The translations under genes and the position numbers were made by a program. Shown here one piece after another: positions 27,610-64,000 of a stretch of 64,000 nt of DNA (position 1 is the stretch's first letter; every line of letters starts with the position of its first letter). Origin of the DNA: Patescibacteria group bacterium (GTDB lineage Bacteria; Patescibacteriota; Microgenomatia; UBA8517); assembly GCA_035260845.1 (NCBI GenBank), contig DATFUL010000003.1:75620-139619 (forward strand), in the 5' to 3' direction. The notes below the pieces were generated by a model. That model saw nothing but the letters and a program-made list of their open reading frames with translations. It had not been told where the DNA came from and did no database searches.

Positions 27610-27618
27610 GGTTAGTCA

Positions 27619-38113: not shown

Positions 38114-39448
38114 TTGTATACTACAAATGTGATTTTATTTGTACCTATATTTCTATTTTTAGCCGAGTTGTTTTGGCAAATATATGTTAACTACCCTCCC
38201 ACCTCTGAGCAACTTAATTTTGGTGTTACAAACTATATATTACTTTGGTCATTAAGAATTATTAGTTTTATATTTATTATTGGCACATCATTCTTCCTGT
38301 CAAAAAAGCTAAGAACAAGAATAAAATCTTATTATTTTATTCTGATTCTAATATGCCCATGCATATCCTTGATTTGGATGTCGTACCCCTTAGATGCCTT
38401 AAAATTATTTATAATTTCAGGGATATTTTATTTTTTAACTAGAAAAAACCATAACTATTATTTCGCAGTTATAATAACCACCATCGCCATATTAAGTCTA
38501 AATCTCGGATTTTTTAATCAGAATCCAAATATTTTAAAAATCGTCTCGTTGAAACAACCCCAAAGTGAAGTTAATTTTCGTTTTCTTATTGAGGATAATT
38601 TAAATCCTAATATATCAGTTCCTAAGACTTTAAAAAGATTGGTTTACAATAAAATATTTTTTGCCTTAAGAGATTCTGTAAACGAATCATTAACCTTTTT
38701 TGATTTTGAGACGCTTTTTTTTCAAGAAATACACCCATTGGGACAAAAGGCCTTTGTAATATTCTTTTGGCCTGAAATTGTAATTTTTTGTCTCAGCCTT
38801 TGGCTGGTTATGACTAAAAAGATCTCCTCAAAAAAGGAATTTTTATCAATTTTATTGATATCTTTTATTTATTTTATAACTACCAACGTGTCGACTGAGA
38901 GAAGGTTGATCTTTAGCCTATTCCCGCTTTCTATTATTATGGCGGAATGCATAAACCAGTTTTTGAAAAGCCGTTCCAAAAAAACAAAGTATGGGATTAT
39001 ATTTCTAATTTTATTAACTTCTTATGGATGGCTAACTAATTATTATGATAGATTTGTAAGGCCTAATTTTTGGCTTGATAATCGTCCTATTGCATATAAT
39101 TTTTTTCTATCTTATTTAAAAACACAAACTTTAAACTATAGTCAAATTATTGTATCTGAAAACCTCAGTGAATCTAAAAAATACTGTCTCTTTTACCTCA
39201 AAGATTGTAGTTTATTAAAAACTGACAATTTTGATTTAAGTAAAAATAGACCAAATAGGGGGGTTTTATATATTGGTTTCACAGGTAACTTCCTTGGCCA
39301 AAACTCGGAAAATTCATTCCCACAGGATGCAAATGAAGAAATAAAGAAAAGAGAATTAGAAATACTCAAAAAAACCCATATTCTTGATAATATTGCAAAC
39401 AAGTACGGACAGGAACTTTTTATAGTACAAACTAAAGATAAACAATGA
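38114..39448 (+). CDS. Uncharacterised polytopic membrane protein of 444 aa
   Basis: Hydrophobic N-terminal two-thirds and a soluble C-terminal third. It overlaps the next gene by 4 nt (ATGA). Confidence 0.45.
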   Translation: MYTTNVILFVPIFLFLAELFWQIYVNYPPTSEQLNFGVTNYILLWSLRIISFIFIIGTSFFLSKKLRTRIKSYYFILILICPCISLIWMSYPLDALKLFIISGIFYFLTRKNHNYYFAVIITTIAILSLNLGFFNQNPNILKIVSLKQPQSEVNFRFLIEDNLNPNISVPKTLKRLVYNKIFFALRDSVNESLTFFDFETLFFQEIHPLGQKAFVIFFWPEIVIFCLSLWLVMTKKISSKKEFLSILLISFIYFITTNVSTERRLIFSLFPLSIIMAECINQFLKSRSKKTKYGIIFLILLTSYGWLTNYYDRFVRPNFWLDNRPIAYNFFLSYLKTQTLNYSQIIVSENLSESKKYCLFYLKDCSLLKTDNFDLSKNRPNRGVLYIGFTGNFLGQNSENSFPQDANEEIKKRELEILKKTHILDNIANKYGQELFIVQTKDKQ

Positions 39449-41121: not shown

Positions 41122-41157
41122 TTGTATAAAAAGCCTAAATCTGCTATTGTTTCGTTA

Positions 41158-42882
41158 ATGAAAATTGCATTAAAAATTATAAAAAGACCTCTTTTTTGGA
41201 TATTTTTACTAACTTTATTTTTAAGGTTATATCGACTTGGGGAATTTCCATATGGATTCCACATAGACGAAGCCAAAATAGCCTGGAATTCTTTGTCGAT
41301 TCTAAAAACAGGTCATGACGATCATGGAAATCTATTTTCACTTTATTACAATTCTTTTGGTGACTACAGGCCTACAGGACTTTTTTATCTTACCATTCCT
41401 TCGATAGCTATTTTCGGGAGATCAATTTTTGCTACAAGACTCCCAGTTGCTCTTTTTGGAGCTTTAATGATATTTCCAATATATTTTCTAATTAATTTGC
41501 TAGATACAAACAAAGGAAAATCGACAACAAACGCTAAGGCCGGGCTTTTAGGGGCGCTCCTCATGGCGATATCTCCTTGGCAAATTGACTTGAGCAGGGC
41601 TACAAACGAAGTAGTTGTTTCTACTTTCTTCGCTCTGTTTTCTTTATTTTTCCTTATAAAATTGATTAAATCAAAAAAAGAAGTATTCGGAGTGTTGTCG
41701 GTAATAACTATTATTTTTAGCTATTTCTTTTATCATGCAATAAGATTTTTAGCTCCTCCAATTCTACTTATTACGTTTTTGTATTATATCAAGGAGATTA
41801 AAAGAAAAGAGGTAAAAAAATGGATCTACATTTGCCTTATCGTTGCGTTTGTTTTATCTATTTTCTTTAGTACAACAAAGGAAGGTTTGGCAAGGTTTAA
41901 TCAGGTTTCTATATTTAGCGGCGTTGACACAACTTATCAGATTGAAAGGATTAGGGGTGAAAATTCAAAGAGAAATTTATTGACCATATTTTTCGATAAC
42001 AAATATGTAATTTATCTTAAAACTTTTATGGATCAATATAGTAGTTATTTTGCCGGTGATTTTTTAATTGGCCCGTCAGGTAGGCCATACCGATTTGCAA
42101 CACCAGGTTCCGGACTTATTACTTACGTTGAAGCTATTCTCTTAATATCTGGTGGAATTATAATCGTAAAAGGCAAAAAGAACTTGCTACCGCTTTTTTT
42201 ACTATTAGTTACCCCTTTACCTGCAGCTATAACCACCGAGGATGTCCCAAACTTGAGTCGCGCATTTTTAATGCTCCCATTTTTAATTATTATTGAGGCT
42301 TATGGTTTTGAAGCAATTCTCCTGATCTCCAAAAAATACAAAAAACTCATTACAACTACTATTTTTTCGTTATTGACCCTGAATTTTATCTATTTCTCAT
42401 ATATGTATATGGTTCATTCGATAAATCACCGTCCATATCTGAAAAATTACTTTGTCGATAGCCCAACTTATCGAAACATGGGTGCCAAAGAGCTTTCACT
42501 TAAACTTGATACACTCAAACAAAAATATGATAAAGTAATTATCACAAATTTTCCCGACAACCTATATCCATGGTACGCTTTTTTCACCAACAAAAATCCG
42601 TCTGACTTTAATAAAACTTATAGCACCCAGACGATGGAACGAGATTACGAAAATATAATATTCTCACAAGAAAAGTGTCCATCTGATAACAATTTAATTA
42701 AGTATAACAAGCAAAATATTCTCATGGTAGATTCATGGGAATGTGAGTATCAAAGTCAGATTGATCAGGGTTTACCCCTTAAGGTTGTAGGAAGAATCAC
42801 TAGACCCGATGGTACTGAAGCTTATATCTTACTCGAAAGAGACAGGTCAAAGCCTTTATTTCTTAATGGAGTTTATTATTAA
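41158..42882 (+). CDS. GT-C ArnT/PMT-like membrane glycosyltransferase, family A paralog 8. The ATG at 41158 is preferred over the TTG at 41122.
   Basis: FHIDEAKIAWNSLSILKTGHDDHGNLFS...FGDYRPTGLFYL. MKIALKIIKRPLFWIF is a typical N-terminus for this family. Confidence 0.7.
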   Translation: MKIALKIIKRPLFWIFLLTLFLRLYRLGEFPYGFHIDEAKIAWNSLSILKTGHDDHGNLFSLYYNSFGDYRPTGLFYLTIPSIAIFGRSIFATRLPVALFGALMIFPIYFLINLLDTNKGKSTTNAKAGLLGALLMAISPWQIDLSRATNEVVVSTFFALFSLFFLIKLIKSKKEVFGVLSVITIIFSYFFYHAIRFLAPPILLITFLYYIKEIKRKEVKKWIYICLIVAFVLSIFFSTTKEGLARFNQVSIFSGVDTTYQIERIRGENSKRNLLTIFFDNKYVIYLKTFMDQYSSYFAGDFLIGPSGRPYRFATPGSGLITYVEAILLISGGIIIVKGKKNLLPLFLLLVTPLPAAITTEDVPNLSRAFLMLPFLIIIEAYGFEAILLISKKYKKLITTTIFSLLTLNFIYFSYMYMVHSINHRPYLKNYFVDSPTYRNMGAKELSLKLDTLKQKYDKVIITNFPDNLYPWYAFFTNKNPSDFNKTYSTQTMERDYENIIFSQEKCPSDNNLIKYNKQNILMVDSWECEYQSQIDQGLPLKVVGRITRPDGTEAYILLERDRSKPLFLNGVYY

Positions 42883-42890: not shown

Positions 42891-43793
42891 TTAACCATAT
42901 CTAGAAAATACTACTTCATCTGAGACTCTTGATTCCTTTATCTCCTTCTTTCGTTTTTGCATAACAATTCCAAACCTACTAAGCGCCATTATTACTACCT
43001 TAATATACCCGGGATTTTTTAATAACCTGGAAAATAGTCCTACTATATGTTTTCTTATTAAATTTGGACTTGTGACATTTTTCCAAAGCATTAAAAGTTG
43101 GTTTCTTTCTCTAACTCTTGCAATATATTGTTTGGTAAATTTATTTATTGTCAACTCATGGTGGTGTTCGACAATACCACCCGGTTCCCAAAGTAATTTA
43201 TAACCTCTTTTTGCTGCTCTATAACATAAATCAATATCCTCCCAATAAAATGGTGATAGAAGTTTCTCGTCCATTCCCCCAAGCTCAATCCAAACACTTT
43301 TTCTGAACACCCCACTTCCTCCATTGACATAAAAACTTGGATGATTTTTGTTTCCCTCTTCACCTGTTGCCAACTCTATAAATCCGTGAGCAAAGGTACC
43401 TTTTGCAGATCCAAAGCCTTTTTCATGGAGAGATACAGCAAAGACAGAGCTATCTTCAAAGTGTGGCAATACTTTTACCAAAAAATTTCTATCTGGGAAG
43501 ACGTCTGTATTTATAAGCAGTATGAGCTCGCCCTTGGCAGCTCTCACCCCAGTATTAACCGCCGCAGAAAAACCACGATTTGCAGTATGTTTGAAAAGTC
43601 TAACTTCGGGAAATTTAGTCTTAAGTAATGCAACACTTCCATCCCATGAACCATCATCAACTATAATTATTTCTAAAATATTGTTTGGGGAATAATTTTT
43701 TGCGTCGATAAGTTTGGGTAGATTATTCTCAAGCAATTTCTCTCCATTGAGGTTAGATATAACAACTGAGACTTTTAATTCTTTATTTTTCAT
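42891..43793 (-). CDS. GT2 glycosyltransferase
   Basis: LKVSVVISNLNGEKLL, IIVDDGSWDGS, NTDVFPD. Length 300 aa. Confidence 0.8.
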   Translation of the reverse strand: MKNKELKVSVVISNLNGEKLLENNLPKLIDAKNYSPNNILEIIIVDDGSWDGSVALLKTKFPEVRLFKHTANRGFSAAVNTGVRAAKGELILLINTDVFPDRNFLVKVLPHFEDSSVFAVSLHEKGFGSAKGTFAHGFIELATGEEGNKNHPSFYVNGGSGVFRKSVWIELGGMDEKLLSPFYWEDIDLCYRAAKRGYKLLWEPGGIVEHHHELTINKFTKQYIARVRERNQLLMLWKNVTSPNLIRKHIVGLFSRLLKNPGYIKVVIMALSRFGIVMQKRKKEIKESRVSDEVVFSRYG

Positions 43794-45342
43794 TTTTGAT
43801 TATTCTTTCTTGAACTACCAACTCACCAAAAGTCCTTTGATCATAAAACTTTGATATTGAATCCTGATCTCCCTTTGCATAATCGATGTAAAGACTAGGT
43901 ATCCCATTGGTGGGCTCAATTATAAAGAAGTGATGTGTTAGATTACTAGGTGCAAACTTTAAATTATTGCCAAGCTGACCAATTTGATCACGGCCAATCC
44001 AACTGGGTAAATATCCATATTTAGATTGACCATACCAGTTATATAAATAAGACCAAAGTGTGTTTACAAAAAGTGGGCTTGTTAGAGAACTTATACTAAA
44101 TGGTTCGTTCCCAGATCTCTGATAAGTATAGTCGACTAGGCTGGTTTCATTTCTTAAAATAAGATCAGGTTGTAGTGGAAAGATTGTCTGACCATTTTTA
44201 TTTTCTTTTAATATTGTAGACAAGTTTGCAAAAAGTACAATAATTAGCGCTATAGATAGTATAAATTTGTAATTGCTAAAATATTTCCAAATAAAAATTC
44301 CTGCAAAAATACAAATTGCCGGCGCCACCCCCACCAAGATATGCTTCATATTCCAACCTCCAAACGGAAGTGCTACTGAATAGGCAAAAATCCAAACTGT
44401 TAAAAAAGTTTCCCAAGTCAATATTTTGTTTTTAATTTCATTCAAATTCAAAAAGATTGAAGATATTATCATTGTAAAACCCAAAAGTCCTCCAAATACA
44501 ATGTTTTTTGGATAAAGTGAATATGCAAAAACTTTACCAGATTGATTAATTAAAGTAACAATATAGTCACTTAATGTTTTTGTTTGAACAATTCCGTCTT
44601 GTCCTGTAAGGAGATACAAAATTCCAGAAGTACCGGTTAAACCAAATTTAATCTCTGCTAAGATCATGCTCGAAATACCAATCATAAAACTTAATATGAA
44701 AATTATTAAATCTTTTTTAACTATTTTATCTTTAAAAACCAGAAGCCAAATAATGAGTGGAAAAATATGGTAAGAAAGCGCAACTTCACTTTGAATAGAA
44801 AGCCCTAGACCCAAACCCGCGATGATAGGCGCCCACTTGTTTGATTTTGTAATCCAAAGATATAGTCCAACATAAAAAACTGGAACAAACCAGACAGCCA
44901 TAGATGCATTTATTAAAAAGTTTGCATACTGGGTTGCTTCAAATGAAAATGCAAATATTAAAGAAGCGATGAGTGCAGGTATTTTATTTTTGGTAAGAAG
45001 TTTGGTTAGAAAAAAAACCACAAACACTCCCAAAGAACTAACAAAACTTAAAAAATAAGCAACCACAACAGGATTTCCGTGTCCAAATAAATAGGCAGGG
45101 GCTATAACATAATAATAAAGTACTCCATGGAAAAGTCCCGGAACTCCGCTCACAGGGGGGCCTAAGATTTTAAGGTTGCCACGCAGTAGGTCCTGAACCA
45201 CAAAAGCGTCGCGTGCTTGATCATATGCAAAAGAAATGGCCTTTTGAGGCAAATACCACCATCTTAAAATTAAAGCTGCAACAAAAAAAGCGATTAAAAA
45301 CCAATTAGAGTATTTTGTTAATATTCGATTCAAAGTTTTCAT
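43783..45342 (-). CDS. GT-C-like (PMT_2/ArnT-related) membrane glycosyltransferase, family B paralog 1
   Basis: TM1 then FAYDQARDAFVVQDLLRGNLKILGPPVSGVPGLFHGVLYYYVIAP. The motif is shared with 56930 and 59423. Confidence 0.65.
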   Translation of the reverse strand: MKTLNRILTKYSNWFLIAFFVAALILRWWYLPQKAISFAYDQARDAFVVQDLLRGNLKILGPPVSGVPGLFHGVLYYYVIAPAYLFGHGNPVVVAYFLSFVSSLGVFVVFFLTKLLTKNKIPALIASLIFAFSFEATQYANFLINASMAVWFVPVFYVGLYLWITKSNKWAPIIAGLGLGLSIQSEVALSYHIFPLIIWLLVFKDKIVKKDLIIFILSFMIGISSMILAEIKFGLTGTSGILYLLTGQDGIVQTKTLSDYIVTLINQSGKVFAYSLYPKNIVFGGLLGFTMIISSIFLNLNEIKNKILTWETFLTVWIFAYSVALPFGGWNMKHILVGVAPAICIFAGIFIWKYFSNYKFILSIALIIVLFANLSTILKENKNGQTIFPLQPDLILRNETSLVDYTYQRSGNEPFSISSLTSPLFVNTLWSYLYNWYGQSKYGYLPSWIGRDQIGQLGNNLKFAPSNLTHHFFIIEPTNGIPSLYIDYAKGDQDSISKFYDQRTFGELVVQERIIKNEK

Positions 45343-54162: not shown

Positions 54163-55671
54163 TTACTTTAGAGGGAGTTCAAAAAAAAGAAGTGACTGAT
54201 GAGTGCCATCTGGTCGAATTGCTTTTGGATACTCAGCAATCAGTTTTAAGTTCTCTTTGCTTGCATCTCCTTTAAACCTATCGTTGTTTATTACCAAAAA
54301 TGTAGCATTTCCTGATTTTTGCGAATCAAGAAGAGGGGTTGGAACTTCGCTAAAATTTAACCCGACTCCGATAATTGTAATTTGTTTGTCGTTATTTAGG
54401 TATGCCTCAAGACCATCAGGCAGCGTTCCAAAATAACCTTCTGTACCAATTACTATCTTTTTACTAGGATTTTGAAGTTGATAGTTTTGAATATATTTTG
54501 CAGCCTCAGAAATACCCTGTCCCGCGGTCCATTCTTCCAAATAACCTGATCTTTCACTTCTTGGTAAATTGGCTTTAGCTGGATTTGTAAGAAGATTGTA
54601 ATCAAAGGTCAAAGATTGAACTGCAAAAAGAGCCAAGATTACGGCCAATACCTTCATAGTATTTTTCCTTTCTTCTAAAAATGCGGATGAAGCTATTGTT
54701 ATTAAAAACGGAATCGTAAAAAGAATATAACGAGCTGTTAAGACTTTTGCAAATTCAGATTCAACAAAAATTGGCCCCAAAAACCAAATGGACAAAACTA
54801 ATATTTCCTTCCAATGTTTTCTCCAATTAACCAATAAACCAATCAACAAAATCACCAAAAGTGACCATGGACCCATCATAACAAGCCACTGCCACGATTG
54901 AAGAAGCCACGGCTTGAGTGGATCGAAAGGAGTTGTTAAAAAATGATTAATCGGATAGACATAGTCTAAATTGCGTCTGGCAATTAGTTCGAAGTTTGGA
55001 CCAAGATGAAGAATTGAAAATATTCCGTAACCAATAATTATTGTAACTAAGGTTAGTGGAATAATTTTAATAAGTCTTTTGGGAGACTTGATAAAAAGCC
55101 AAAGAGTCGGCAGCATTAAAGCAAAAAATAGTGCGGGAGATTTGGTAAGCCATGCCCCGCCAAGTGCAAAACCTGAAAGAAGCGCAAAGTCTAAACGCTC
55201 TTTTGTAAATGCAAGGTAGGCAAAAATGAAAGTCCAAATACCAAACATGGTAAGCATTGAGTCGACCAGTGCCATTCTGTCAAAGAAAAACGAAAAAGGG
55301 ATGATCGAATAAATTAGGCCTGCAATTAGTGCAACCTTTTTGTTTTTAAATAGAAGAAAGGATAAAGTTGAAACTCCAACTAACGTTCCCAAGCCAGAAA
55401 CAACGGAGACAAAACGGCCTGCAAATAGTGGATCATGAATAAATTTAATTATTCCCATAAGAACCCACATATAAAGCGGTTCTTTGCCGTCAGATAGCGG
55501 CAGAAAACGCAAAGTTTCTTCAGCTTTCATTACCTGCGCCCAACGTATATAAATTGCCTCATCCGCAAAAACCGGAAGAATGGTTAGATTAAAAAATCTT
55601 AGGGAGAATAAGACTATAACTCCAATACCACTCAAAATATAAACCCAATTATCGCGGAAGAACTTTTTCAC
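54163..55671 (-). CDS. GT-C ArnT/PMT-like membrane glycosyltransferase (divergent), with a GTG start
   Basis: TM1 then PVFADEAIYIRWAQVMKAEE (ArnT-type DE-x-x-Y loop). About 12 TM and a C-terminal soluble domain. Confidence 0.65.
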   Translation of the reverse strand: MKKFFRDNWVYILSGIGVIVLFSLRFFNLTILPVFADEAIYIRWAQVMKAEETLRFLPLSDGKEPLYMWVLMGIIKFIHDPLFAGRFVSVVSGLGTLVGVSTLSFLLFKNKKVALIAGLIYSIIPFSFFFDRMALVDSMLTMFGIWTFIFAYLAFTKERLDFALLSGFALGGAWLTKSPALFFALMLPTLWLFIKSPKRLIKIIPLTLVTIIIGYGIFSILHLGPNFELIARRNLDYVYPINHFLTTPFDPLKPWLLQSWQWLVMMGPWSLLVILLIGLLVNWRKHWKEILVLSIWFLGPIFVESEFAKVLTARYILFTIPFLITIASSAFLEERKNTMKVLAVILALFAVQSLTFDYNLLTNPAKANLPRSERSGYLEEWTAGQGISEAAKYIQNYQLQNPSKKIVIGTEGYFGTLPDGLEAYLNNDKQITIIGVGLNFSEVPTPLLDSQKSGNATFLVINNDRFKGDASKENLKLIAEYPKAIRPDGTHQSLLFFELPLK

Positions 55672-55683
55672 AGTTAAATTTTA

Positions 55684-55702
55684 CCATTTACATTGTAAAT
55701 GG
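55684..55702. promoter_or_regulatory. Perfect 9-1-9 inverted repeat CCATTTACA-T-TGTAAATGG, 13-31 nt upstream of the GTG start of 54163..55671
   Basis: Read directly. The arms are at 55684-55692 and 55694-55702 in a 71-bp intergenic spacer. It is either a terminator-like hairpin for the upstream DUF1761 gene or an operator. Confidence 0.35.
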
Positions 55703-55742
55703 CCAAGCTTTGCTTATCGTTTACACTGAACGAAGCGAAGGG

Positions 55743-56165
55743 TTAAACCCAAAGGGCGAGGAGAACTCCCATCATGCAAAGAAGGGTTAAATAATAACCA
55801 TTGTTAAGAAGCCAAAGTTTCCAAGATTTACCTTCCCAAAGAACACTACCAAGAGTGATTGGGGCTATAAAACCTAGCCAGTTCCAAAAACCAGTTTGAA
55901 GTCCAGCTGAAATTCCACTTTCGTGTAAATAACTACTTGCAAAAACTAATGCGTGAGCAAGAATAAAAGCCATAAACAAAGACCCTATAAATTGAATTCC
56001 ATAAAGTTTAGCCATATCACCGCTTTTCATTCCTTTCATAGATTCTTTACTCATTCCCATCATCTTCATCCAAGGTTTTCCAAAAATTGGGCCATACCAC
56101 AAGGAGCCAAGAACCATAGAAAGAAGTGCTGCAACCAAAATTGCTAAATAATTTACAGGTACCAT
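55743..56165 (-). CDS. Small 4-TM membrane protein, DUF1761-like
   Basis: 140 aa. N-terminus NYLAILVAALLSMVLGSLWYGPIFGKPWM resembles the DUF1761 consensus. Confidence 0.45.
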   Translation of the reverse strand: MVPVNYLAILVAALLSMVLGSLWYGPIFGKPWMKMMGMSKESMKGMKSGDMAKLYGIQFIGSLFMAFILAHALVFASSYLHESGISAGLQTGFWNWLGFIAPITLGSVLWEGKSWKLWLLNNGYYLTLLCMMGVLLALWV

Positions 56166-56177
56166 ATATTCATATTA

Positions 56178-56924
56178 CTAGACTTTATATTTTCCTGCAA
56201 GCGCATTAAAACGTACTAACAATAAACCACGTAGGCCTTCGATTGAGTCTTTGATTGGGTCCACTTTTGTTCCTTCTTTGTGGTGCCAATCAACAGGAAC
56301 TTCGGCAATTTTAAAACCTAATTTACGGGCTACATATAAAACTTCCAAATCAAAGCCTGCGTTGACTGATGCACCAACCGCTTTATTGTTTGAATCAAAA
56401 ATTTCCAACCTTTTGAAAATTTCTTCTGCGGCATGCGCGGAGAATGCCTTAAATCCACACTGAGTATCGCGAAATGGAAGTCTTAAAACTAAAAGCCGAA
56501 GGAAAGAAAATCCAGACGCCATAACTTTACGAATTATGGGCGCCCCTTCCCTGCCCGTTCGAGAACCAATCACAACACTGTAACCCGACTTAAATTTTGG
56601 GAGTATTTTTTCTATTTGATCAATCGGTGTTGCTTGGTCAGTATCTGTAAATAAAATTATTTCCCCAGCAGCTTTTAATATACCAGCAGTTACAGTACCT
56701 GCTTTACCCCTATGTGGTTCTTTTAGAACTGAGAAATTTTTATGTTTGTTTGCAAATTCTTCTGCTAATCTTTTTGTATTATCTGTTGATCCATCATCAA
56801 CAAATAAAATCTCCCAAGAGTATTTTTGTTTGGATAAATAGTTATAAACAGAATCCAAAACTCCAGTTCTTAAATTATGCTCCTCATTATATGCAGGGAT
56901 TACTACGCTTAAAAATGGTTTCAT
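56178..56924 (-). CDS. GT2 polyprenol-phosphate sugar synthase-like glycosyltransferase
   Basis: LSVVIPAYNEEHNL, VDDGSTDNT, DTDQATP. Confidence 0.85.
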   Translation of the reverse strand: MKPFLSVVIPAYNEEHNLRTGVLDSVYNYLSKQKYSWEILFVDDGSTDNTKRLAEEFANKHKNFSVLKEPHRGKAGTVTAGILKAAGEIILFTDTDQATPIDQIEKILPKFKSGYSVVIGSRTGREGAPIIRKVMASGFSFLRLLVLRLPFRDTQCGFKAFSAHAAEEIFKRLEIFDSNNKAVGASVNAGFDLEVLYVARKLGFKIAEVPVDWHHKEGTKVDPIKDSIEGLRGLLLVRFNALAGKYKV

Positions 56925-56929
56925 AATAA

Positions 56930-58468
56930 TTATTTACTATATAAAATTCTTTCTCGCGCTTCCACTGTTATTCCACCAAAAGTTTGTTGTTTTACAATTT
57001 TACCAATTCCTTTCTGTCTATCAAGCCAGGCTTTAAGTCGATTGGGATTTGGTGGATCAACCTCATATAGTGTATATAAAAGCGGAACCTGTTTTTCTAC
57101 TGCAAGTTTGTGATATTTATTTGTCCCCAACCACTTAAATAAATAATCGTATGCAAAAGGAATTACAGGCGGAACATAAACATCTACATTAAAGTCACGT
57201 CTCCCCGCATTTTCGTATACCCAATCAATTGCAGCTTTCTGGTTACTTAAAAGTATTATGTCGTGCCCAGAGTCAGTAGTTACTAAATAAGATTTGGTCC
57301 AAGACCAGTTTTGAGAGAGAAAGAAAAAGAGGAAATAGATAACCAGAACTTTTCCGATAGTTGAAGTTTCAAAAAAGTGGGAAAGTGTATAAGAAACTGC
57401 AATCAAAAATATTAAATAATAACCAGTCAAATAATACTGATAAAAATTGCCGTAGTTACCCTGAAAGAATATAAGTCCAATAATGGGGGATGCTAAAAGA
57501 ATAAAAATTACTTTAAATCTATTGTTTTGAATAAGTTTTGGTAGAAAATAAATAAAAACAGTTCCTAAAACAATTAGGTGGAACCATTCTTTTTCGTACG
57601 GGCTGTGAATTAAGGTTGAAGTTAGATAAACAAAAATAAGTGCAAGTCTGTCATTTAAAAATCTCCATGTTGGAATTCCAAAACTGCTACCAGTTGTGAG
57701 AATTCCACTAACATTATTTTGCAAAATTCCACCATGTTTTAAATTAAAGATGAAAAGAGGTAAGAAAGTAACTAGAAAGGCGATAATTGAATAAAAAATT
57801 ATTTTCCAATTCAATGTCTTTCGTTTCCAAATTGCAAAAACAGCAACTGCTGGAAAATAAAATAGTTCTCCGGAAGACCCAAAGTGGAAGAAGGATGACC
57901 CCAGAATAAAAGACAGAAGAACCCAATAGTATTTTTTACCGTCTTGTATTTGGAACATGCACCACACCAAAATCATCGAGAGTAGTAGCATCGGGGTTGG
58001 ATTGCTGAGCCAACGGCTGGCATAAATTATTTCAAAAGAAAAAGCTCCAAGGATAATAGCAATCATCCCGGTTTTTACCCCACCAATTTTCTTGGCCAAA
58101 TGATACATAATCGCTAAAGCAGCGACTGAAAGAATTGCCAAGAATACCGCAGGGTAAACTGGATTACCCTTCCCTAACCAATAAAAAGGGGCTATTAAAT
58201 AATAATAAAACGGTCCCCTAAAAACTCCAGCCAAACCAGTTGTCGGACCTATTAAGAAAAATTTATGGGAGTGAATTAAATCCCAGATTACCTGAGCGTC
58301 CCTGCCCTGATCATAATAAAAGCCAAGAATTTGGTCGACCCTAAAAACCCGGAGTACAAAAGATATTACCAAAATTATAGAAACCGTAATATATTCTAAA
58401 GTGAAGAATTTTTTACTACGTATCGTGGCCAAACTTTGCTTAATTTTTTCTTGCATACTTTCTGGCAA
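56930..58468 (-). CDS. GT-C-like membrane glycosyltransferase, family B paralog 2
   Basis: FYYDQGRDAQVIWDLIHSHKFFLIGPTTGLAGVFRGPFYYYLIAP. Confidence 0.65.
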   Translation of the reverse strand: MPESMQEKIKQSLATIRSKKFFTLEYITVSIILVISFVLRVFRVDQILGFYYDQGRDAQVIWDLIHSHKFFLIGPTTGLAGVFRGPFYYYLIAPFYWLGKGNPVYPAVFLAILSVAALAIMYHLAKKIGGVKTGMIAIILGAFSFEIIYASRWLSNPTPMLLLSMILVWCMFQIQDGKKYYWVLLSFILGSSFFHFGSSGELFYFPAVAVFAIWKRKTLNWKIIFYSIIAFLVTFLPLFIFNLKHGGILQNNVSGILTTGSSFGIPTWRFLNDRLALIFVYLTSTLIHSPYEKEWFHLIVLGTVFIYFLPKLIQNNRFKVIFILLASPIIGLIFFQGNYGNFYQYYLTGYYLIFLIAVSYTLSHFFETSTIGKVLVIYFLFFFLSQNWSWTKSYLVTTDSGHDIILLSNQKAAIDWVYENAGRRDFNVDVYVPPVIPFAYDYLFKWLGTNKYHKLAVEKQVPLLYTLYEVDPPNPNRLKAWLDRQKGIGKIVKQQTFGGITVEARERILYSK

Positions 58469-59426
58469 CTGCTAAGGCTTTTTCTACAGCCTCGTCAAAT
58501 GGAACATCTTTAACCATTGCCCCCCCTGCCTGTTTATGTCCACCACCACCCAATTCTTCTGCAATTTTGGAAATATCCGATCCTACTTTTGCCCTCATAC
58601 TAACATTCAAGGAGTCTTTTTTTTCTTCAACCATTATCATTCCGAAATCTGTATTTTCAATCGAGGATGCATAAAAGTTTGCAGCCATTCTTGTTACGCC
58701 GCTTGAATCTGGATAAAGAATATATGTTTCGTGAGGAATAGCAGACCAAACAAATCTATTTTCTTTATCTATTTGTAAATTCTTTAAGATTTCACCAATC
58801 AATTTAACTTTATCAAAACTTATATTTCTATAAAAATTAAATATTATTTTATCTTTATCTGCCCCAAGCTCCATAAGATGCGCCATTGTTTTTGCAGTTG
58901 TTATATCTGCGCTTGAGTGCTGCAGAGACGAAGTATCGTAAATTAATCCTGCTAACAAATCCTGGGCTATTTCTGTGGAAATTTTTATATTCCAATCTTT
59001 AAAAATCTTATATACAACTTCTGCTGTTGAACTTCTTTTTGAGTCAACTATATTTATTTCTCCAAAACCTTTATTTGTATAATGATGATCTATAACAATC
59101 TTTTTTATTTCTGGGATCTTGTTGGAAAGACCTGCAACTTGAGACCATTCTGATGAATCTAGTAGTAAAAAGGTATCGTAACCGGAGAAATCAAAAGTGT
59201 CATAGTCAATTCTCTGAACTTTATCTGACGATTCTAAGAATTTAGAGTCAACAGAAATGTTATCCGGACAAACAACCTCTACAGTTTTACCCATATCTAA
59301 CAAAACTTTTCTCATGGCAAGAGCACTACCAACGCTATCTGGATCTGGACTCCTGTGACAATTTATCAAAATCTTGTTGGCTTTTTTTATTTCTTCTAAA
59401 ATTTTTTGCGATTCTTTATAGTTCAT
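58440..59426 (-). CDS. nrnA: DHH-family phosphoesterase, NrnA-like (bifunctional oligoribonuclease / pAp phosphatase type)
   Basis: DHH motifs INCHRSPDPDSVGSALAM, LLDSSE and IVIDHH, plus the DHHA1 GGGGHKQAGGA. Confidence 0.8.
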   Translation of the reverse strand: MNYKESQKILEEIKKANKILINCHRSPDPDSVGSALAMRKVLLDMGKTVEVVCPDNISVDSKFLESSDKVQRIDYDTFDFSGYDTFLLLDSSEWSQVAGLSNKIPEIKKIVIDHHYTNKGFGEINIVDSKRSSTAEVVYKIFKDWNIKISTEIAQDLLAGLIYDTSSLQHSSADITTAKTMAHLMELGADKDKIIFNFYRNISFDKVKLIGEILKNLQIDKENRFVWSAIPHETYILYPDSSGVTRMAANFYASSIENTDFGMIMVEEKKDSLNVSMRAKVGSDISKIAEELGGGGHKQAGGAMVKDVPFDEAVEKALAVARKYARKN

Positions 59427-60961
59427 GGTTTTGAATGGACAAGCCTGTATAGTATCACTCCATCAACTTCCCAACTACTGTCTATTTTACTCCAACCAAA
59501 ATTAGCAACAGCAGCTGAAGGATTATGTGTTGGATCACACTTTGTTTTTTCAAGTTCGCAAACAACAAATAGCTGATCTGTAATGGAATCTTTAGATTGT
59601 GAATCAATATTTACAACTGGTTGATTGTCTTTAAGTAAAAAGTATTTATAACCATCCTCATAATTACGTTCGGCAATTACCCCTAAATTAAATCTCATGT
59701 TCCCTGACTCCTGCTCAATCTTAGCGGCAACGTGGGATGCTCTGCCCAATTGATTATTTGGTGAATATCGAAGTGGATTTTGAATTAAGTTTACAATTAT
59801 TAAATAAAGAACTAGCCCTCCTCCCACGATCTTTCCTAATTTTCCGATTTTTAAAAAATAGGAAATAAATATTCCGATTAAAAAGTAAGGCACTGCAAAT
59901 AAAAATCCAAAATAGTGATCATAAATATTCTGTTTATAAAGCCCAAAACCCAGTAAACCAAATAGCAGCCAGGTGAATAGTAAATAAGACGCAGGTGGAA
60001 TAGTAGAATTCTTTTTCTTAAATAATAGCCAAGCAAAATAGCCCAGTAGCGAAATAATTACAAATGAGGAAATTTCCCCGGCAAGTTCATTCTTACCGCC
60101 AACCAAAGAAGTATTTATTTGATTAAGCATTTCGGGAACTTTTGGAATTGCGGTCCAAGGCTTGATAGAAACAGTTGTTTGTCTTACTGTAAAAAATGTA
60201 TAAATAGCACGAGAGTTTATCCAGTTATGCCGAAGGTCAAAAAAGAACAGAGGTGACATAAGGACCAAAAAAATGATGAATGAATACAGGGAATAGAGCC
60301 AAAACTTCTTTTTGCTTTTACTTTCTTTGGTCTGCCATAAAGTTAAAAGCCAAAATATACCAATAGTTGGCAAAAGAAGAAGAGCTAAGTAATGGGATTG
60401 AATCGCAGCAGCAAATGACATACCAAAAACTAGTAGCCAATTAAAATTCTTCTCTTTCCAGACTTTCCATATCGAATAAATGCAAAGGAGGGCAAAAAAC
60501 GGCATTATGTTTGGGTTCCAGGAAGACCTGGAATAAATTATTATTGTTGGGCTAATTGCATAAAGACCTGCAGCAATAACACTTGCGGTTTTTCCAAACC
60601 ACTTTCTCCCTGCGTACCAAACAAACCAAATAGTAATAATTCCTAAGATTGCAATTTGAACTGCTGGGCCAACTGGTGAAAAGAAAGCTAAAAGAAGTGC
60701 TGGCGCCATTATATAATAATAGAGGGGACCTAAATACATATTTCCAATTGAAGTTCCTGGACCAATAAGTGGCGGGTGGCCTTCTGTTAAAAGTCTTCTA
60801 ACAATAATTACGTCACGGCCTTCGTCCCCTAAAAAGGTCATATACTGATCAATCTTATATAATCTGAGAAAAGCACCAATTATTAAAATCGAGAAGACAA
60901 CCCAAAATTCTAAAGGGTTTTCCATTGCCCAATTTTTGATTTTTAATGCAATTTTTTCCAC
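59423..60961 (-). CDS. GT-C-like membrane glycosyltransferase, family B paralog 3
   Basis: FLGDEGRDVIIVRRLLTEGHPPLIGPGTSIGNMYLGPLYYYIMAP. Confidence 0.65.
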   Translation of the reverse strand: MEKIALKIKNWAMENPLEFWVVFSILIIGAFLRLYKIDQYMTFLGDEGRDVIIVRRLLTEGHPPLIGPGTSIGNMYLGPLYYYIMAPALLLAFFSPVGPAVQIAILGIITIWFVWYAGRKWFGKTASVIAAGLYAISPTIIIYSRSSWNPNIMPFFALLCIYSIWKVWKEKNFNWLLVFGMSFAAAIQSHYLALLLLPTIGIFWLLTLWQTKESKSKKKFWLYSLYSFIIFLVLMSPLFFFDLRHNWINSRAIYTFFTVRQTTVSIKPWTAIPKVPEMLNQINTSLVGGKNELAGEISSFVIISLLGYFAWLLFKKKNSTIPPASYLLFTWLLFGLLGFGLYKQNIYDHYFGFLFAVPYFLIGIFISYFLKIGKLGKIVGGGLVLYLIIVNLIQNPLRYSPNNQLGRASHVAAKIEQESGNMRFNLGVIAERNYEDGYKYFLLKDNQPVVNIDSQSKDSITDQLFVVCELEKTKCDPTHNPSAAVANFGWSKIDSSWEVDGVILYRLVHSKP

Positions 60962-61650
60962 AGTTTTAGTAAGTCAACAAAACTCTTTATTATTACGTTC
61001 AAGTCTCTTCCTGTTCCAACACCTTTCAGTCTTGGATAATGTGTGACAGGAATCTCTGCGATTTGAAAACCACTTTTTTTGGCTTTTATCAAAAGCTCGC
61101 TTGATATAAAAGCTCCCCTTTCGCTTTCAAGCTTTGGTATTGTATTCACAACACTTCTTGAAATTAATTTAAAACCACAGTCAATATCGTGAACTTTTAA
61201 ACCAAAAAGTAAAAATACAGAAAGTTCCCAAATTTTACTTGTTATTATTTTGTATTTTGAAACCTGACGTTTTTTATAATAACCAATTACTAAATCAGCA
61301 TTTGTTTCTTTTTGTTTTTGCAGAAATTTTGTAATTTCTGCAAAATCAAACTGTCCGTCTGAATCGATAAAAGCAATCCAGTTATATTTTGACCCGTAGA
61401 GTCCTGATTTAAACGAAGCGCCATATCCTCTGTTTTTGACATGATTAATAAGTTTAATGTTTGAGTCACTTTGTTGTATATCCTCGACAATTTCTTGAGT
61501 TTTGTCACTTGAACCATCATTAACGACTACTATTTCCCATTTACTTGCAACTTTCTTAAGAACAGATTTTGTTTTGAGAACTACTTCTTTTATATTTTCC
61601 TCTTCGTTGTATGTTGGAAGGAAAACAGAAAGACCTGAGATTTGATCCAT
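60943..61650 (-). CDS. GT2 polyprenol-phosphate sugar synthase-like glycosyltransferase
   Basis: LSVFLPTYNEEENI, VVNDGSSDKT, DSDGQFD. Confidence 0.85.
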   Translation of the reverse strand: MDQISGLSVFLPTYNEEENIKEVVLKTKSVLKKVASKWEIVVVNDGSSDKTQEIVEDIQQSDSNIKLINHVKNRGYGASFKSGLYGSKYNWIAFIDSDGQFDFAEITKFLQKQKETNADLVIGYYKKRQVSKYKIITSKIWELSVFLLFGLKVHDIDCGFKLISRSVVNTIPKLESERGAFISSELLIKAKKSGFQIAEIPVTHYPRLKGVGTGRDLNVIIKSFVDLLKLWKKLH

Positions 61651-61693
61651 TATGCCTAAAGTCTAGCATAGATTGGGGCTAGCGTGTTAATAT

Positions 61694-62854
61694 ATGGGTA
61701 TGAAAGAGACAACCAGAAAGTTTTTTTTTGTTGCACTTTTTTCGCTTCTTCCGACGATTTTAATATGGCTGCCATTTTTTCTTAGAATTCCAGTTTTTTG
61801 GAACATTCCGCTCCCCACAAATGGCCTGGCAACTATTGTTGCTAACTATGACGGTCCTCTTTATTTGGTTGCCGCTAAAACCCTCTACAATAAGGCAGTA
61901 ATTGGGAGCAATTTTCAATTTCCTTTATCCTCTGAATACTACACAGCCCACTTTCCTCTTTTTCCACTTTTAATTAGATTTTTTGGGTTTGTTATGAATT
62001 ACCCGTACGCAATGCTTGTTGTTACGCTTTTAACAAGTATTTTGGCAATTTATTTCTTCGAAAAACTTATAAGTGAATATGTAGATAAAAAAGATGTCAT
62101 GTTTTTAACTTTTCTTTTTGCAATATTTCCAGCTCGTTGGCTTATTGTTAGATCAGTAGGATCTGCCGATCCTCTTTTTGTTGGGGCAATTATCGCGTCA
62201 GTTTATTACTTTAAGAACAAAAAATATTTATTAGCCGGAATTTGGGGTCTTATTGCTCAAATTACCAAGTCTCCCGGGATTTTACTTTTTATTTCTTACT
62301 CTTTGTACCTTCTTATGCCAATTGTTACCGAAAAACTTGGAGTAACAAAGTGGCTACGAAGTTTAAACTTAAAAAAGACTTATCCAATATTTTTAATCCC
62401 AGTTGGTCTTTTATTAGTATTCAGTCTTTATCGTCTTACTCAAGGCGACTTCTGGGCATATTTTAAGTCGGGGGATAATATTCATTTATTCTTCCCTCCT
62501 TTTCAGATCTTTAATTACTCAGCACCGTGGGTGGGGACTTTTTGGCTTGAAGAAGTAATCTTTATTTACATGCTTGGCGCAATTGGTGTTTATAGACTAT
62601 TCGCTAAAAAGGAATATGAAATTGCTACTTTTTCTGGGGTATTTTTCTTTTTAACCCTATTCATCGCACACAGAGATTTACTTAGATACTCCCTTCCTCT
62701 TTTACCATTTTTATATGTAGCATTTTCGGATGTCTTAGTTAAAAAGGAAGTTAAAGTAGCAACTGCTGTAATTATTATTCCAATTTATTTATTTTCACTT
62801 GCCTTCATTTCCCAAAATGTGATGCCAATTAGTAATTGGGCCCCATTTCTCTAA
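61694..62854 (+). CDS. Polytopic membrane protein, possibly a PIG-V/GT76-like mannosyltransferase-type GT-C
   Basis: NYDGPLYLVAAKTLY...AHFPLFPLLIR resembles the PIG-V-family WDa-hY-IA-GY...FFPlyPll motif. There are 9-10 TM. Confidence 0.4.
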   Translation: MGMKETTRKFFFVALFSLLPTILIWLPFFLRIPVFWNIPLPTNGLATIVANYDGPLYLVAAKTLYNKAVIGSNFQFPLSSEYYTAHFPLFPLLIRFFGFVMNYPYAMLVVTLLTSILAIYFFEKLISEYVDKKDVMFLTFLFAIFPARWLIVRSVGSADPLFVGAIIASVYYFKNKKYLLAGIWGLIAQITKSPGILLFISYSLYLLMPIVTEKLGVTKWLRSLNLKKTYPIFLIPVGLLLVFSLYRLTQGDFWAYFKSGDNIHLFFPPFQIFNYSAPWVGTFWLEEVIFIYMLGAIGVYRLFAKKEYEIATFSGVFFFLTLFIAHRDLLRYSLPLLPFLYVAFSDVLVKKEVKVATAVIIIPIYLFSLAFISQNVMPISNWAPFL

Positions 62855-62909: not shown

Positions 62910-63125
62910 ATGGAAATTGCCAGGCATTGGAGGTTGAAGAAAGAAAGATATCAGTTAATGGGTAGCATATGCCTCAAATGTGACCATAAAATATTTCCAC
63001 GCAGACCCATTTGCCAAAATTGCGGTGAAAAGACTTCAAGAGATTTTAATATCTCGCCAACTGGCAATATTTATCAAGCGGGGGTTATTTCTTTGCCCAA
63101 GGAAGTTTCCATGTTTTCCAAATAA
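62910..63125 (+). CDS. Small Zn-ribbon protein or fragment, DUF35 N-terminal-like. Possibly a truncated remnant.
   Basis: ARHWRLKKERYQLMGSICLKCDHKIFPRRPICQNCG matches the rubredoxin-like Zn ribbon of DUF35 proteins. The ORF stops after about 30 aa of the expected OB-fold. Its last 41 nt overlap the convergent GT2-GtrA gene. Confidence 0.3.
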   Translation: MEIARHWRLKKERYQLMGSICLKCDHKIFPRRPICQNCGEKTSRDFNISPTGNIYQAGVISLPKEVSMFSK

Positions 63126-64000
63126 AAATGTTGTAGACAATATAGTTGTACGGAAGGACAACTGCAAAAAGTGCAAAAAGGAGTGCTATCAAATGCACTA
63201 AAGATGTATCTCCAAATAATTTAACAGCACCAGAAACAATAAATGGCTGAACTATTACTGCAAAGAGTGATGAAAAGTTAAATTTAAGAAATTGAGTTAC
63301 AATATCGCTGAATTTAGTTATAACTTTATCTTTAAAGGTCCAAATATTGTTAAATATAAAATTAGAGATTATTGCAGCTTCAGTTGCAAAGAAAGTAGCG
63401 GTAAAAGTGGAAAGTCCGAAACGCTTTAAAAGTTCCAGGCCTAAATAGTTAACCAAAAATCCCGTAAAACCAACTGTCCCAAATTTAATAAATCTAATTT
63501 TGTCGCGAATTCCCAAAATTATTGCAACTTTAAAACTAGCCAAAGTCTCCTTGGTGTTAAACTTTGAAACGTCTTTGGTTCTGGCAGCAAAAGCGAGGGG
63601 AACTTCTACGATTTTTTTAGCGTGTTTGGTAGTTAAATAAAATAAATGAACTTTGTGAGCAAATCGTTTCAATTCCATTAAATGCTCCAAATCAATTTGG
63701 TCCATTACACCTTTTACACGGGTAAGTCTAAAACCGGTAGTCATATCATGAAATTGAGGTTTAATTAAAACAACCCTAATAAACATGTTGCCAAAATAAC
63801 TCACTAATTTTCTGAAAAGAGCCCAGCTCTTAGGAACCGAACCACCTTTTATATATCTACTCCCAATTACATAGTCTGCACCGTTTAAATAGGCTTCGAC
63901 CATTGGTATTACAAAACGAGGGGGGTGTTGGAAATCAGCATCCATTTCCATTACAGCATCGGCATGCAACTTTTCCATTGCGTACTCAAACCCTTTAACG
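63085..64000 (-). CDS. GT2 polyprenol-phosphate glycosyltransferase fused to a C-terminal GtrA-like membrane domain. It is partial, with the 5' end beyond the window.
   Basis: The reading frame continues to the window edge (...VKGFEYAMEKLHADAVMEMDADFQHPP). DADFQHP is the DPM1-type second acidic motif. The C-terminal part has 4 TM, with GTVGFTGFLVNYLGLELL typical of GtrA. Confidence 0.75.
   Translation of the reverse strand, partial: VKGFEYAMEKLHADAVMEMDADFQHPPRFVIPMVEAYLNGADYVIGSRYIKGGSVPKSWALFRKLVSYFGNMFIRVVLIKPQFHDMTTGFRLTRVKGVMDQIDLEHLMELKRFAHKVHLFYLTTKHAKKIVEVPLAFAARTKDVSKFNTKETLASFKVAIILGIRDKIRFIKFGTVGFTGFLVNYLGLELLKRFGLSTFTATFFATEAAIISNFIFNNIWTFKDKVITKFSDIVTQFLKFNFSSLFAVIVQPFIVSGAVKLFGDTSLVHLIALLFALFAVVLPYNYIVYNIFIWKTWKLPWAKK

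What the first reader, a model, noticed from the sequence alone, without database searches (positions are those of the whole stretch)
56930..61650. NrnA-type DHH phosphoesterase embedded, with overlaps, between two family B GT-C paralogs and a GT2
Gene order on the minus strand is GT2(60943) - GT-C-B(59423) - DHH(58440) - GT-C-B(56930) - GT2(56178). There are 4-nt and 29-nt overlaps, which implies co-translation.

NrnA normally degrades nanoRNA and pAp, and its presence inside a glycosylation operon is unexpected. It may be a streamlined-genome accident. Alternatively the DHH enzyme could act on a phosphorylated glycan intermediate or nucleotide by-product, as seen for other DHH-DHHA1 proteins hydrolysing PAP or c-di-AMP.
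Basis: partly seen in the sequence, partly recalled or inferred. Interest (0 to 1): 0.5.

Follow-up and report, generated by a model that had tools for sequence, protein, structure and literature searches.

The report
Housekeeping NrnA-like gene inside glycosylation operon
A normal-looking short-RNA-degrading enzyme gene (NrnA-like DHH/DHHA1) sits between two membrane glycosyltransferase genes in one group of ultra-small bacteria (Woesebacteria); it is most likely a housekeeping gene riding in a cell-surface sugar operon, not a new part of the glycosylation machinery.

Summary
On the minus strand the order is GT2 (60943-61650), GT-C (59423-60961), DHH/DHHA1 (58440-59426), GT-C (56930-58468), GT2 (56178-56924). 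The GT-C/DHH junction is a 4-nt ATGA overlap. The "29-nt" overlap uses the longest ORF (TTG start); the conserved ATG gives 17 nt.

The DHH protein is a complete standalone DHH-DHHA1 enzyme. Its closest solved structure is Thermotoga TM1595 (E 5e-35), and all catalytic motifs are intact.

The linkage is conserved in one clade only. The upstream GT-C ortholog abuts the DHH gene in 15/15 Woesebacteria-type relatives (38-67% identity), and 12/15 keep the ATGA overlap. Sister lineages place the ortholog elsewhere: Roizmanbacteria have Ldh-HisPhos-DHH, other Microgenomates have RseP-DHH-YqeY, and two bacterial loci checked have infB-rbfA-DHH (truB downstream in one).

I found no clade-specific residue changes and no sign of a second paralog. 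tRNA methyltransferase TrmD is equally fixed in the same island, and 21 of 44 co-directional junctions in the window overlap.

Best reading: the lineage's housekeeping nanoRNase was captured once in a long envelope-glycosylation operon and is held there by overlapping start and stop codons. A biochemical role in glycosylation is not excluded, but nothing supports it. Interest is low to moderate.

The parts
60943..61650 (-). GT2 glycosyltransferase, 235 aa. Resembles polyprenyl-phosphate sugar synthases (DPM1/GtrB/ArnC-like). First gene of the co-directional run.
   Evidence: Pfam Glycos_transf_2, E 1.4e-31. The best NCBIfam matches are ArnC, PgfS, dolichyl-P hexose transferase and PpgS, all below their curated cut-offs. 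Orthologs are 68-79% identical in relatives.
59423..60961 (-). GT-C 'family B' membrane glycosyltransferase, 512 aa (PMT_2). Its stop codon overlaps the DHH start codon.
   Evidence: Pfam PMT_2, E 9.5e-15. The ortholog lies immediately upstream of the DHH gene in 15/15 relatives that have upstream DNA.
59423..59426 (-). ATGA junction: the GT-C stop codon (TGA) and the DHH start codon (ATG) share 4 nt.
   Evidence: Sequence read directly. The same 4-nt overlap occurs in 12 of 15 relatives; the other three have gaps of 2, 6 and 39 nt.
58440..59426 (-). Standalone DHH-DHHA1 phosphoesterase, 328 aa, NrnA-like (TM1595-like). Probably the lineage's nanoRNase / dinucleotide hydrolase.
   Evidence: Pfam DHH plus DHHA1. 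PDB TM1595, E 5e-35 over residues 8-318. D28, D30, D90, D113-H114-H115, D164, R278 and G293-H297 are invariant in 28 homologs and conserved across three lineages. NCBI names the identical protein NrnA. No N-terminal hydrophobic stretch or signal-like sequence is evident by eye in the translation (not tested with a predictor).
58440..58456 (-). 17-nt overlap between the DHH 3' end and the likely ATG start of the downstream GT-C. The ATG is formed by the K-Y-A codons of the DHH C-terminus.
   Evidence: Sequence read directly. The JGI gene call starts here. An in-frame ATG at -17 is listed or visible in 11 of 14 relatives with downstream DNA; two others have it at -20.
56930..58468 (-). Second GT-C 'family B' paralog (508 aa from ATG 58456; 512 aa from TTG 58468).
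   Evidence: Pfam PMT_2, E 2.6e-8. 33% identical to 59423-60961 over 235 aa. The ortholog follows the DHH gene in 13/14 relatives with downstream DNA. In L004 it is absent and the GT2 follows directly. L001, L010 and L090 carry an extra GT-C after it.
56178..56924 (-). Second GT2 glycosyltransferase, 248 aa.
   Evidence: Pfam Glycos_transf_2, E 1.8e-30. 32% identical to 60943-61650. Orthologs are 68-81% identical in relatives.
61651..61693 (.). 43-bp divergent intergenic region. It is the only non-coding gap upstream of the run, so it is the inferred promoter region.
   Evidence: ORF coordinates. Promoter-like and terminator-like matches within 55600-62000 are not clearly above shuffled expectation: 19 promoter-like sites against 21.0 (sd 4.6), and 8 terminator-like sites against 4.6 (sd 2.1). 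The assignment is an inference.
61694..62854 (+). Divergently transcribed 386-aa protein, hydrophobic by eye. Among the best-conserved genes of the block.
   Evidence: No Pfam hit. Weak NCBIfam match to the AZOBR_p60025 cell-surface glycopolymer formation family (31.8 bits against a cut-off of 150). 60-81% identical in relatives.
63085..64000 (-). GT2-GtrA fusion (382 aa on the full contig), cut by the window end.
   Evidence: Pfam GtrA_DPMS_TM plus Glycos_transf_2. The full gene is seen on L006.

Best explanation
The DHH gene encodes this lineage's ordinary NrnA-like enzyme. It is most likely a cytoplasmic, metal-dependent DHH-DHHA1 phosphoesterase of the TM1595 type that cleaves dinucleotides and other very short RNAs to mononucleotides.

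In the ancestor of a Woesebacteria-type clade the gene came to lie between GT-C genes in a long, densely packed envelope-glycosylation operon. It is co-transcribed with them. It is probably translationally coupled through the ATGA overlap upstream and the 17-nt overlap downstream. The overlaps leave no neutral breakpoint, so the arrangement persists.

The neighbouring GT2 and GT-C genes form a standard two-step surface glycosylation module. The GT2 loads a sugar onto a polyprenyl phosphate carrier, a GtrA-type protein is thought to flip the carrier, and the GT-C transfers the sugar outside the membrane. This module needs no DHH enzyme.

**Shown here:** gene order, domains, motifs, clade-limited synteny, different contexts in sister lineages.
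**Inferred:** enzymatic activity, cytoplasmic location, co-transcription, translational coupling, absence of a glycan role.
For: **Identity.** Full-length match to TM1595 (E 5e-35) and to solved NrnA/CnpB structures. Pfam finds DHH plus DHHA1 with no extra domain. Catalytic Asp/His residues and GGGGH are invariant. TM1595 cleaves linear dinucleotides (review PMC9779919).

**Orthology rather than a specialised paralog.**
- In an unbootstrapped NJ tree, 15 of the 16 glyco-linked proteins form one clade. L015 branches just outside it, with the Roizmanbacteria-type pair in between, and the RseP-linked type is the next sister.
- No position is at least 90% conserved in the glyco-linked group and different from both sister groups; 37 positions are shared by all three.
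- Searches with the Roizmanbacteria-type and RseP-type proteins found no protein on any large contig that carries a glyco-linked copy. The best Woesebacterial matches to the RseP-type protein are the glyco-linked proteins themselves, at 44-46% identity (compared).

**Context changes with lineage.**
- Roizmanbacteria: Ldh-HisPhos-DHH, with a convergent LytR gene.
- Other Microgenomates: RseP-DHH-YqeY, seen twice.
- Two other bacterial loci checked (L019, L030): infB-rbfA-DHH, with truB downstream in L030. ORF sizes in further loci look similar.

**Internal control.** TrmD (PF01746), a tRNA methyltransferase with no glycan role, sits about 5 kb upstream in every long locus.

**Overlaps are the genome's norm.** 21 of 44 junctions overlap.

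**No obvious pAp source.** No sulfotransferase or PAPS family appears among the Pfam hits in the window.

**The GT-C family works without an adjacent DHH.** The third family-B GT-C at 43783-45342 has none beside it, and in L004 the downstream GT-C is missing.
Against: - The linkage is unusually stable. It is found in 15/15 relatives down to 38% DHH identity, and the junction geometry is conserved, while genes just downstream of the five-gene block vary (DUF1761, acetyltransferase/GDSL lipase, SDR, extra GT-Cs). Conserved adjacency is a classic hint of functional coupling.
- The DHH gene is the only gene in the 64-kb window whose annotation points outside glycan work (DUF1761 and about 15 ORFs without Pfam hits are unassigned).
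- I could not scan a whole Woesebacterial genome. A divergent second nanoRNase (Orn, NrnB, NrnC) is therefore not excluded.
- The protein scores far below the NCBIfam NrnA equivalog cut-off (82.5 against 350 bits), and substrate classes among standalone DHH-DHHA1 proteins are unresolved (PMC9757072).
- The tree is NJ without support values. One glyco-linked protein (L015) falls outside the Roizmanbacteria-type pair, so either a loss occurred or the tree is wrong at that node.
Confidence: 0.7

Rival explanations
1. Regulatory or physiological coupling without shared chemistry. Selection keeps the nanoRNase in the envelope operon so that its dose tracks envelope synthesis. Alternatively, its dinucleotide-clearing activity (pApA, pGpG) feeds into cyclic-dinucleotide control of the envelope, as proposed for the standalone DHH-DHHA1 protein Pde2.
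For: The linkage and both junction overlaps are conserved in a clade spanning 38-67% DHH identity. Standalone DHH-DHHA1 proteins clear linear dinucleotides that arise from c-di-NMP turnover (PMC9779919).
Against: No cyclase or other c-di-NMP gene appears among the Pfam hits in the window. Sister lineages keep the ortholog in unrelated contexts. TrmD shows the same fixed position with no such rationale.
Confidence: 0.13
2. The DHH enzyme removes a nucleotide by-product of the adjacent GT2 enzymes, for example UDP or GDP to NMP, or pAp from a sulfated glycan. This would relieve product inhibition.
For: From background knowledge, the DHH superfamily includes phosphoanhydride hydrolases (family II pyrophosphatase, PPX1). 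Weak NCBIfam matches to the Mn-dependent pyrophosphatase cover only the N-terminal DHH domain. The gene lies next to two NDP-releasing GT2 genes.
Against: The full-length best matches are dinucleotide/nanoRNA enzymes, not pyrophosphatases. The DHHA1 substrate motifs (SxRx[KR], GGGGH) are the same as in sister orthologs that are not glycan-linked. No sulfotransferase or PAPS family was found. The window contains many other GT2 and GT-C genes with no such partner beside them.
Confidence: 0.07
3. The glyco-linked DHH is a neofunctionalised paralog acting on a phosphorylated lipid or glycan intermediate, and a separate canonical NrnA exists elsewhere in the genome.
For: This is not excluded, because no whole genome could be scanned. 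The NCBIfam NrnA equivalog cut-off is not reached.
Against: No second DHH-DHHA1 protein from the same large contigs appeared in three database searches. There are no clade-specific conserved substitutions. The branch leading to the clade is not long. No second DHH protein is present in the window.
Confidence: 0.04

Closest known systems
TM1595 (TmPDE), the standalone DHH/DHHA1 phosphodiesterase of Thermotoga maritima (PDB 5o1u, 5o25, 5o4z)
   Same: Same length class and two-domain architecture. The proteins align end to end (residues 8-318 against 8-312, E 5e-35). The DHH, DxD and GGGGH motifs match. The degenerate phosphate-binding motif is the same, S-M-R-x-K rather than RxRxR.
   Different: The two sequences are diverged (E 5e-35 over the full length). 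No biochemistry exists for the Woesebacterial protein, and its genomic context is a glycosylation operon.
NrnA of Bacillus subtilis and CnpB/Rv2837c of Mycobacterium tuberculosis (nanoRNase A family)
   Same: Standalone DHH-DHHA1 fold with full-length sequence matches, E 1e-14 to 1e-19. The expected role is clearing 2-5-nt RNA in organisms that lack Orn (PMC9779919 and PMC9757072).
   Different: The strict RxRxR motif is absent. The score is below the NCBIfam NrnA equivalog cut-off (82.5 against 350 bits). In two other bacterial loci checked here the homolog follows infB-rbfA; here it lies between GT-C genes.
GtrA/GtrB/GtrC-type three-component surface glycosylation (also ArnC/ArnT and CsbB/GtcA/YfhO)
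   Same: The flanking genes supply the same parts: GT2 polyprenyl-phosphate sugar synthase-like proteins, a GtrA domain (in the 63085- gene) and GT-C transferases.
   Different: Known systems of this type contain no DHH enzyme (from background knowledge). Here the parts are massively multiplied, with at least 15 GT-C-like genes in 64 kb.

Membership tests
Standalone DHH-DHHA1 phosphoesterases (NrnA-like) | N-terminal DHH domain (PF01368) followed by DHHA1 (PF02272), about 310-340 aa, with no other domain | tested here: met
   DHH at residues 18-160 (64 bits against a cut-off of 28) and DHHA1 at 243-326 (41 bits against 26), in a 328-aa protein.
Standalone DHH-DHHA1 phosphoesterases (NrnA-like) | Catalytic DHH motifs I-IV (DxD, D, DHH, D) and the GGGH motif of DHHA1 | tested here: met
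   H24, D28, D30, D90, D113-H114-H115, D164 and G293-G296-H297 are invariant in 28 homologs. D90 and D164 align where the two deposited TM1595 sequences differ, D in 5o1u and N in 5o4z. All are conserved in three lineages.
NrnA sensu stricto (B. subtilis type) | R-x-R-x-R phosphate-binding motif (R262/R264/R266 in B. subtilis NrnA; PMC9757072) | tested here: not met
   The window protein has S276-M-R278-A-K280. The clade consensus is S-x-R-x-R and TM1595 has S-M-R-S-K. Only the central Arg is invariant.
NrnA sensu stricto (NCBIfam NF053633 equivalog) | Score at or above the curated equivalog cut-off | tested here: not met
   82.5 bits against a cut-off of 350. Even so, NCBI's record names the identical protein NrnA.
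NrnA-like nanoRNases | Hydrolysis of 2-5-nt RNA or linear dinucleotides; complementation of orn depletion | not testable with these tools
   Needs enzymology or genetics.
Sole nanoRNase of its genome (housekeeping ortholog) | Single copy per genome, orthologous to NrnA of sister lineages | tested here: inconclusive
   No second copy in the window. No shared large contig between glyco-linked and other DHH types. Tree topology and lack of clade-specific changes fit orthology. A whole-genome scan was not possible.
Functionally coupled operon partner of GT-C/GT2 (conserved gene neighbourhood) | Adjacency recurring in phylogenetically independent lineages | tested here: not met
   Adjacent in 15/15 members of one clade. 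Absent in the Roizmanbacteria-type, the RseP-type and all 60-odd more distant loci.
GT-C glycosyltransferases (PMT_2 / ArnT-like), the flanking genes | PMT_2 profile above the gathering score; acidic motif near the N-terminus | tested here: met
   PMT_2 scores 55.6 and 34.7 bits against a cut-off of 26.1. The shared motif is D-[EQ]-G-R-D at about residues 45-56 of both paralogs. Topology was not tested.
GT2 polyprenyl-phosphate glycosyltransferases (DPM1/GtrB/ArnC-like), the outer genes | Glycos_transf_2 domain; an equivalog-level match to a specific enzyme | tested here: inconclusive
   The Pfam domain is clearly met (106-110 bits). All NCBIfam equivalogs (ArnC, PgfS, DPM-type, PpgS) are far below their cut-offs, so the sugar and carrier are unassigned.

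The most novel reading that the evidence does not exclude
In Woesebacteria the NrnA-like DHH enzyme has been recruited as a working part of envelope glycosylation. It might clear an inhibitory nucleotide product of the adjacent GT2 enzymes, or it might link dinucleotide signalling to glycan output. Either would explain why its position and both translational-coupling overlaps have survived since the clade's origin.
Probability: 0.1. Interest if true: 0.6.

Novelty: new member of a known kind. Interest (0 to 1): 0.25.

Why it matters
As it stands, this is a caution about guilt-by-association in ultra-compact CPR (Candidate Phyla Radiation) genomes. A gene can be tightly conserved inside an operon across a whole clade, overlaps included, and still be a passenger. 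TrmD in the same island shows the same behaviour.

The finding also documents that the NrnA-like ortholog of Microgenomates changes neighbourhood from lineage to lineage.

If the minority reading were true, it would add a nucleotide-hydrolysing accessory to GtrB/GT-C-type surface glycosylation. It would also give a first functional handle on the very large GT-C expansions of these uncultured bacteria.

Tried and rejected
- **Looked for a pAp source next to the DHH gene.** I searched for a sulfotransferase or PAPS pathway that would make pAp hydrolysis locally useful. No such Pfam family appears among the window's ORFs of 100 aa or more. About 15 ORFs have no Pfam hit.
- **Tested the RseP-linked type (L017, L018) the same way.** It is a separate Microgenomates lineage. 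Identity then drops sharply to the glyco-linked proteins.
- **Looked for clade-specific substitutions suggesting a new substrate.** None were found.
- **Looked for internal promoters or terminators that would isolate the DHH gene.** Counts are not clearly above shuffled expectation.
- **Searched the literature for NrnA in CPR/Patescibacteria and for Woesebacteria glycosyltransferases.** Nothing relevant came up.
- **Considered a tandem duplication of a GT2-GT-C unit around the DHH gene.** The gene order is mirror-like (GT2, GT-C, DHH, GT-C, GT2) on one strand, not tandem. The paralogs are only about 32-33% identical, so this is not a recent duplication.
- **Did not run structure prediction.** The full-length sequence match to solved structures already settles the fold.
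Full report
**1. What is in the sequence**

The window has 30-36% GC in 2-kb steps and about 99% coding density. Its DHH protein is identical to one that NCBI lists from a Patescibacteria-group MAG on a 608,867-bp contig. All ten complete window ORFs compared match a 198,537-bp JGI contig at 100%.

The five ORFs of the finding are at the stated coordinates on the minus strand. Pfam assigns them as follows:
- Glycos_transf_2 to 60943-61650 and 56178-56924
- PMT_2 (GT-C fold) to 59423-60961 and 56930-58468
- DHH plus DHHA1 to 58440-59426

The two GT-Cs are paralogs: 33% identity over the N-terminal 235 residues, E 5e-29. A third member of this 'family B' lies at 43783-45342. The two GT2s are 32% identical.

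**2. The junctions**

The GT-C stop and the DHH start share ATGA.

An ATG at 58456 gives a 17-nt overlap. It is formed by the Lys-Tyr-Ala codons at the DHH C-terminus. That ATG is the start called on the JGI contig, and an in-frame ATG at -17 is listed or visible in 11 of the 14 relatives with downstream DNA.

The overlaps are real but not distinctive. By longest-ORF starts, 21 of 44 co-directional junctions in the window overlap. The five genes head a run of 16 co-directional genes from 61650 to 42891. Promoter-like and terminator-like matches inside the block are not clearly above shuffled expectation.

**3. The surroundings**

Every window ORF with a Pfam hit, apart from the DHH gene and DUF1761, is a glycosyltransferase, methyltransferase, sugar-modifying or polysaccharide-export family:
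- eight tandem family-A GT-C paralogs at 25969-42882
- further PMT_2 and YfhO-like GT-Cs
- many GT2 and GT4 genes
- a Wzx-type flippase
- DegT and FdtA sugar-modifying enzymes
- an epimerase and several methyltransferases

About 15 ORFs have no Pfam hit. No sulfotransferase or PAPS-pathway family was found, and there is no second DHH protein.

**4. What the DHH protein is**

It aligns end to end with Thermotoga maritima TM1595 (E 5e-35). It also matches solved NrnA, CnpB and Pde-type standalone DHH-DHHA1 proteins.

The catalytic residues are invariant in 28 homologs: H24, D28, D30, D90, D113-H114-H115, D164, R278 and G293-H297.

The RxRxR motif described for B. subtilis NrnA (PMC9757072 and PMC9779919) is degenerate here. 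The window protein has S-M-R-A-K and TM1595 has S-M-R-S-K.

The NCBIfam NrnA equivalog scores 82.5 bits against a cut-off of 350. I therefore file the protein as an NrnA-like, TM1595-like standalone DHH-DHHA1 enzyme, not as a proven NrnA equivalog.

TM1595 cleaves linear dinucleotides. pAp and c-di-AMP activities of this group are disputed.

**5. Is the linkage conserved?**

Within one clade, yes. I examined sixteen independent relatives, with DHH identity of 38-67% for the fifteen full-length proteins and locus GC of 0.36-0.46 where it was computed. They came from a genome-collection scan, a metagenome scan and contig look-ups.

| Feature | Count | Source |
|---|---|---|
| Ortholog of GT-C 59423-60961 immediately upstream of DHH | 15/15 with upstream DNA | |
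| ATGA 4-nt overlap kept | 12/15 | |
| Ortholog of GT-C 56930-58468 immediately downstream | 13/14 with downstream DNA | |

The exception downstream is L004, where the GT2 follows the DHH gene directly, again with an ATG at -17. L001, L010 and L090 carry an extra GT-C after the downstream GT-C.

Genes beyond the downstream GT2 vary: DUF1761 here, and an acetyltransferase, a GDSL lipase or an SDR elsewhere.

**6. Where the linkage stops**

The next-closest DHH proteins (38-43% identity) lie in other contexts:
- ArsP permease-DHH (L014)
- His-phosphatase-DHH with a convergent LytR gene (L016)
- RseP-DHH-YqeY (L017 and L018)

A search with the L016 protein showed that its type belongs to Roizmanbacteria-named genomes. 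One 379,609-bp contig showed GT2-Ldh-HisPhos-DHH.

In two more distant bacterial loci the homolog follows infB-rbfA, with truB downstream in L030. Several other loci have the same ORF-size pattern.

In an unbootstrapped NJ tree of 78 proteins, 15 of the 16 glyco-linked proteins form one clade. L015 branches just outside it, with the Roizmanbacteria-type pair in between, and the RseP-type pair is sister to the whole group.

**7. Paralog or ortholog?**

I could not scan a whole genome. The indirect evidence favours orthology:
- The large contigs that carry Roizmanbacteria-type or RseP-type proteins never have the same length as the large contigs that carry glyco-linked proteins.
- In the RseP-type search, identity falls from 57% or more within its own lineage to 44-48%. 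The hits in that lower band that can be traced to one search are the glyco-linked proteins themselves.
- In an alignment of 119 + 119 + 71 sequences, no position is at least 90% conserved in the glyco-linked group and different from both sister groups. Thirty-seven positions, including every catalytic motif, are shared by all three.

**8. An internal control**

TrmD (PF01746) is a tRNA methyltransferase with no glycan role. It lies about 5 kb upstream, between sugar-nucleotide or GT2 genes and the GT2-GtrA gene, in every locus long enough to show it. A housekeeping RNA gene can therefore be fixed in this island without any functional tie.

**9. Verdict**

The most likely explanation is that the lineage's ordinary nanoRNA/dinucleotide hydrolase was captured once in an envelope-glycosylation operon. 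Overlapping start and stop codons then hold it there (confidence about 0.7).

A dosage or signalling link (about 0.13), a nucleotide by-product role (about 0.07) and a specialised paralog (about 0.04) remain possible but unsupported.

The conserved context appears undescribed in the searched literature. It does not define a new kind of system.

Noticed in passing
window 25969-42882: Eight family-A GT-C (PMT/PMT_2) paralogs of 543-586 aa lie almost back to back on both strands. Their pairwise identity is 23-37%. With the other GT-C-like genes, the 64 kb holds at least 15 such genes, a very large expansion for a genome that may be under 1 Mb.
   Followed up: partly
window 61694-62854 (+): A divergently transcribed 386-aa protein, hydrophobic by eye, has no Pfam hit and only a weak NCBIfam match to a 'cell surface glycopolymer formation' family. 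It is 60-81% identical in relatives, which makes it among the best-conserved genes of the block.
   Followed up: partly
L006 4545-5171 (just beyond the window's right end; also in L001, L002, L004, L008, L009 and L090-L093): TrmD stands alone on the opposite strand. It lies between sugar-nucleotide or GT2 genes and a GT2-GtrA fusion, and the position is conserved across the clade. From background knowledge, its usual place is the rpsP-rimM-trmD-rplS operon, which is not seen here.
   Followed up: partly
window 55743-56165 (-): A DUF1761 gene sits between the GT2 and the next GT-C. It has no counterpart at this position in any compared relative, so this slot of the operon is variable.
   Followed up: no
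window 10403-18059 (-): A run of six consecutive co-directional ORFs (144-594 aa) has no Pfam hit and no paralogs in the window. They lie inside the glycan island.
   Followed up: no
window 17986-19224 (+): A 412-aa protein appears to fuse a weak N-terminal methyltransferase region (Methyltransf_23, residues 34-150) to a GT2 domain (residues 181-321).
   Followed up: no
L016 2988-5717; L094 7291-10494: In Roizmanbacteria-type contigs the NrnA-like gene follows a histidine-phosphatase gene and converges on a LytR-CpsA-Psr gene. In L094 that gene is followed by a 'phage metallopeptidase' domain gene, and the same domain also abuts the DHH gene in L014. This is a different lineage-specific neighbourhood.
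   Followed up: partly
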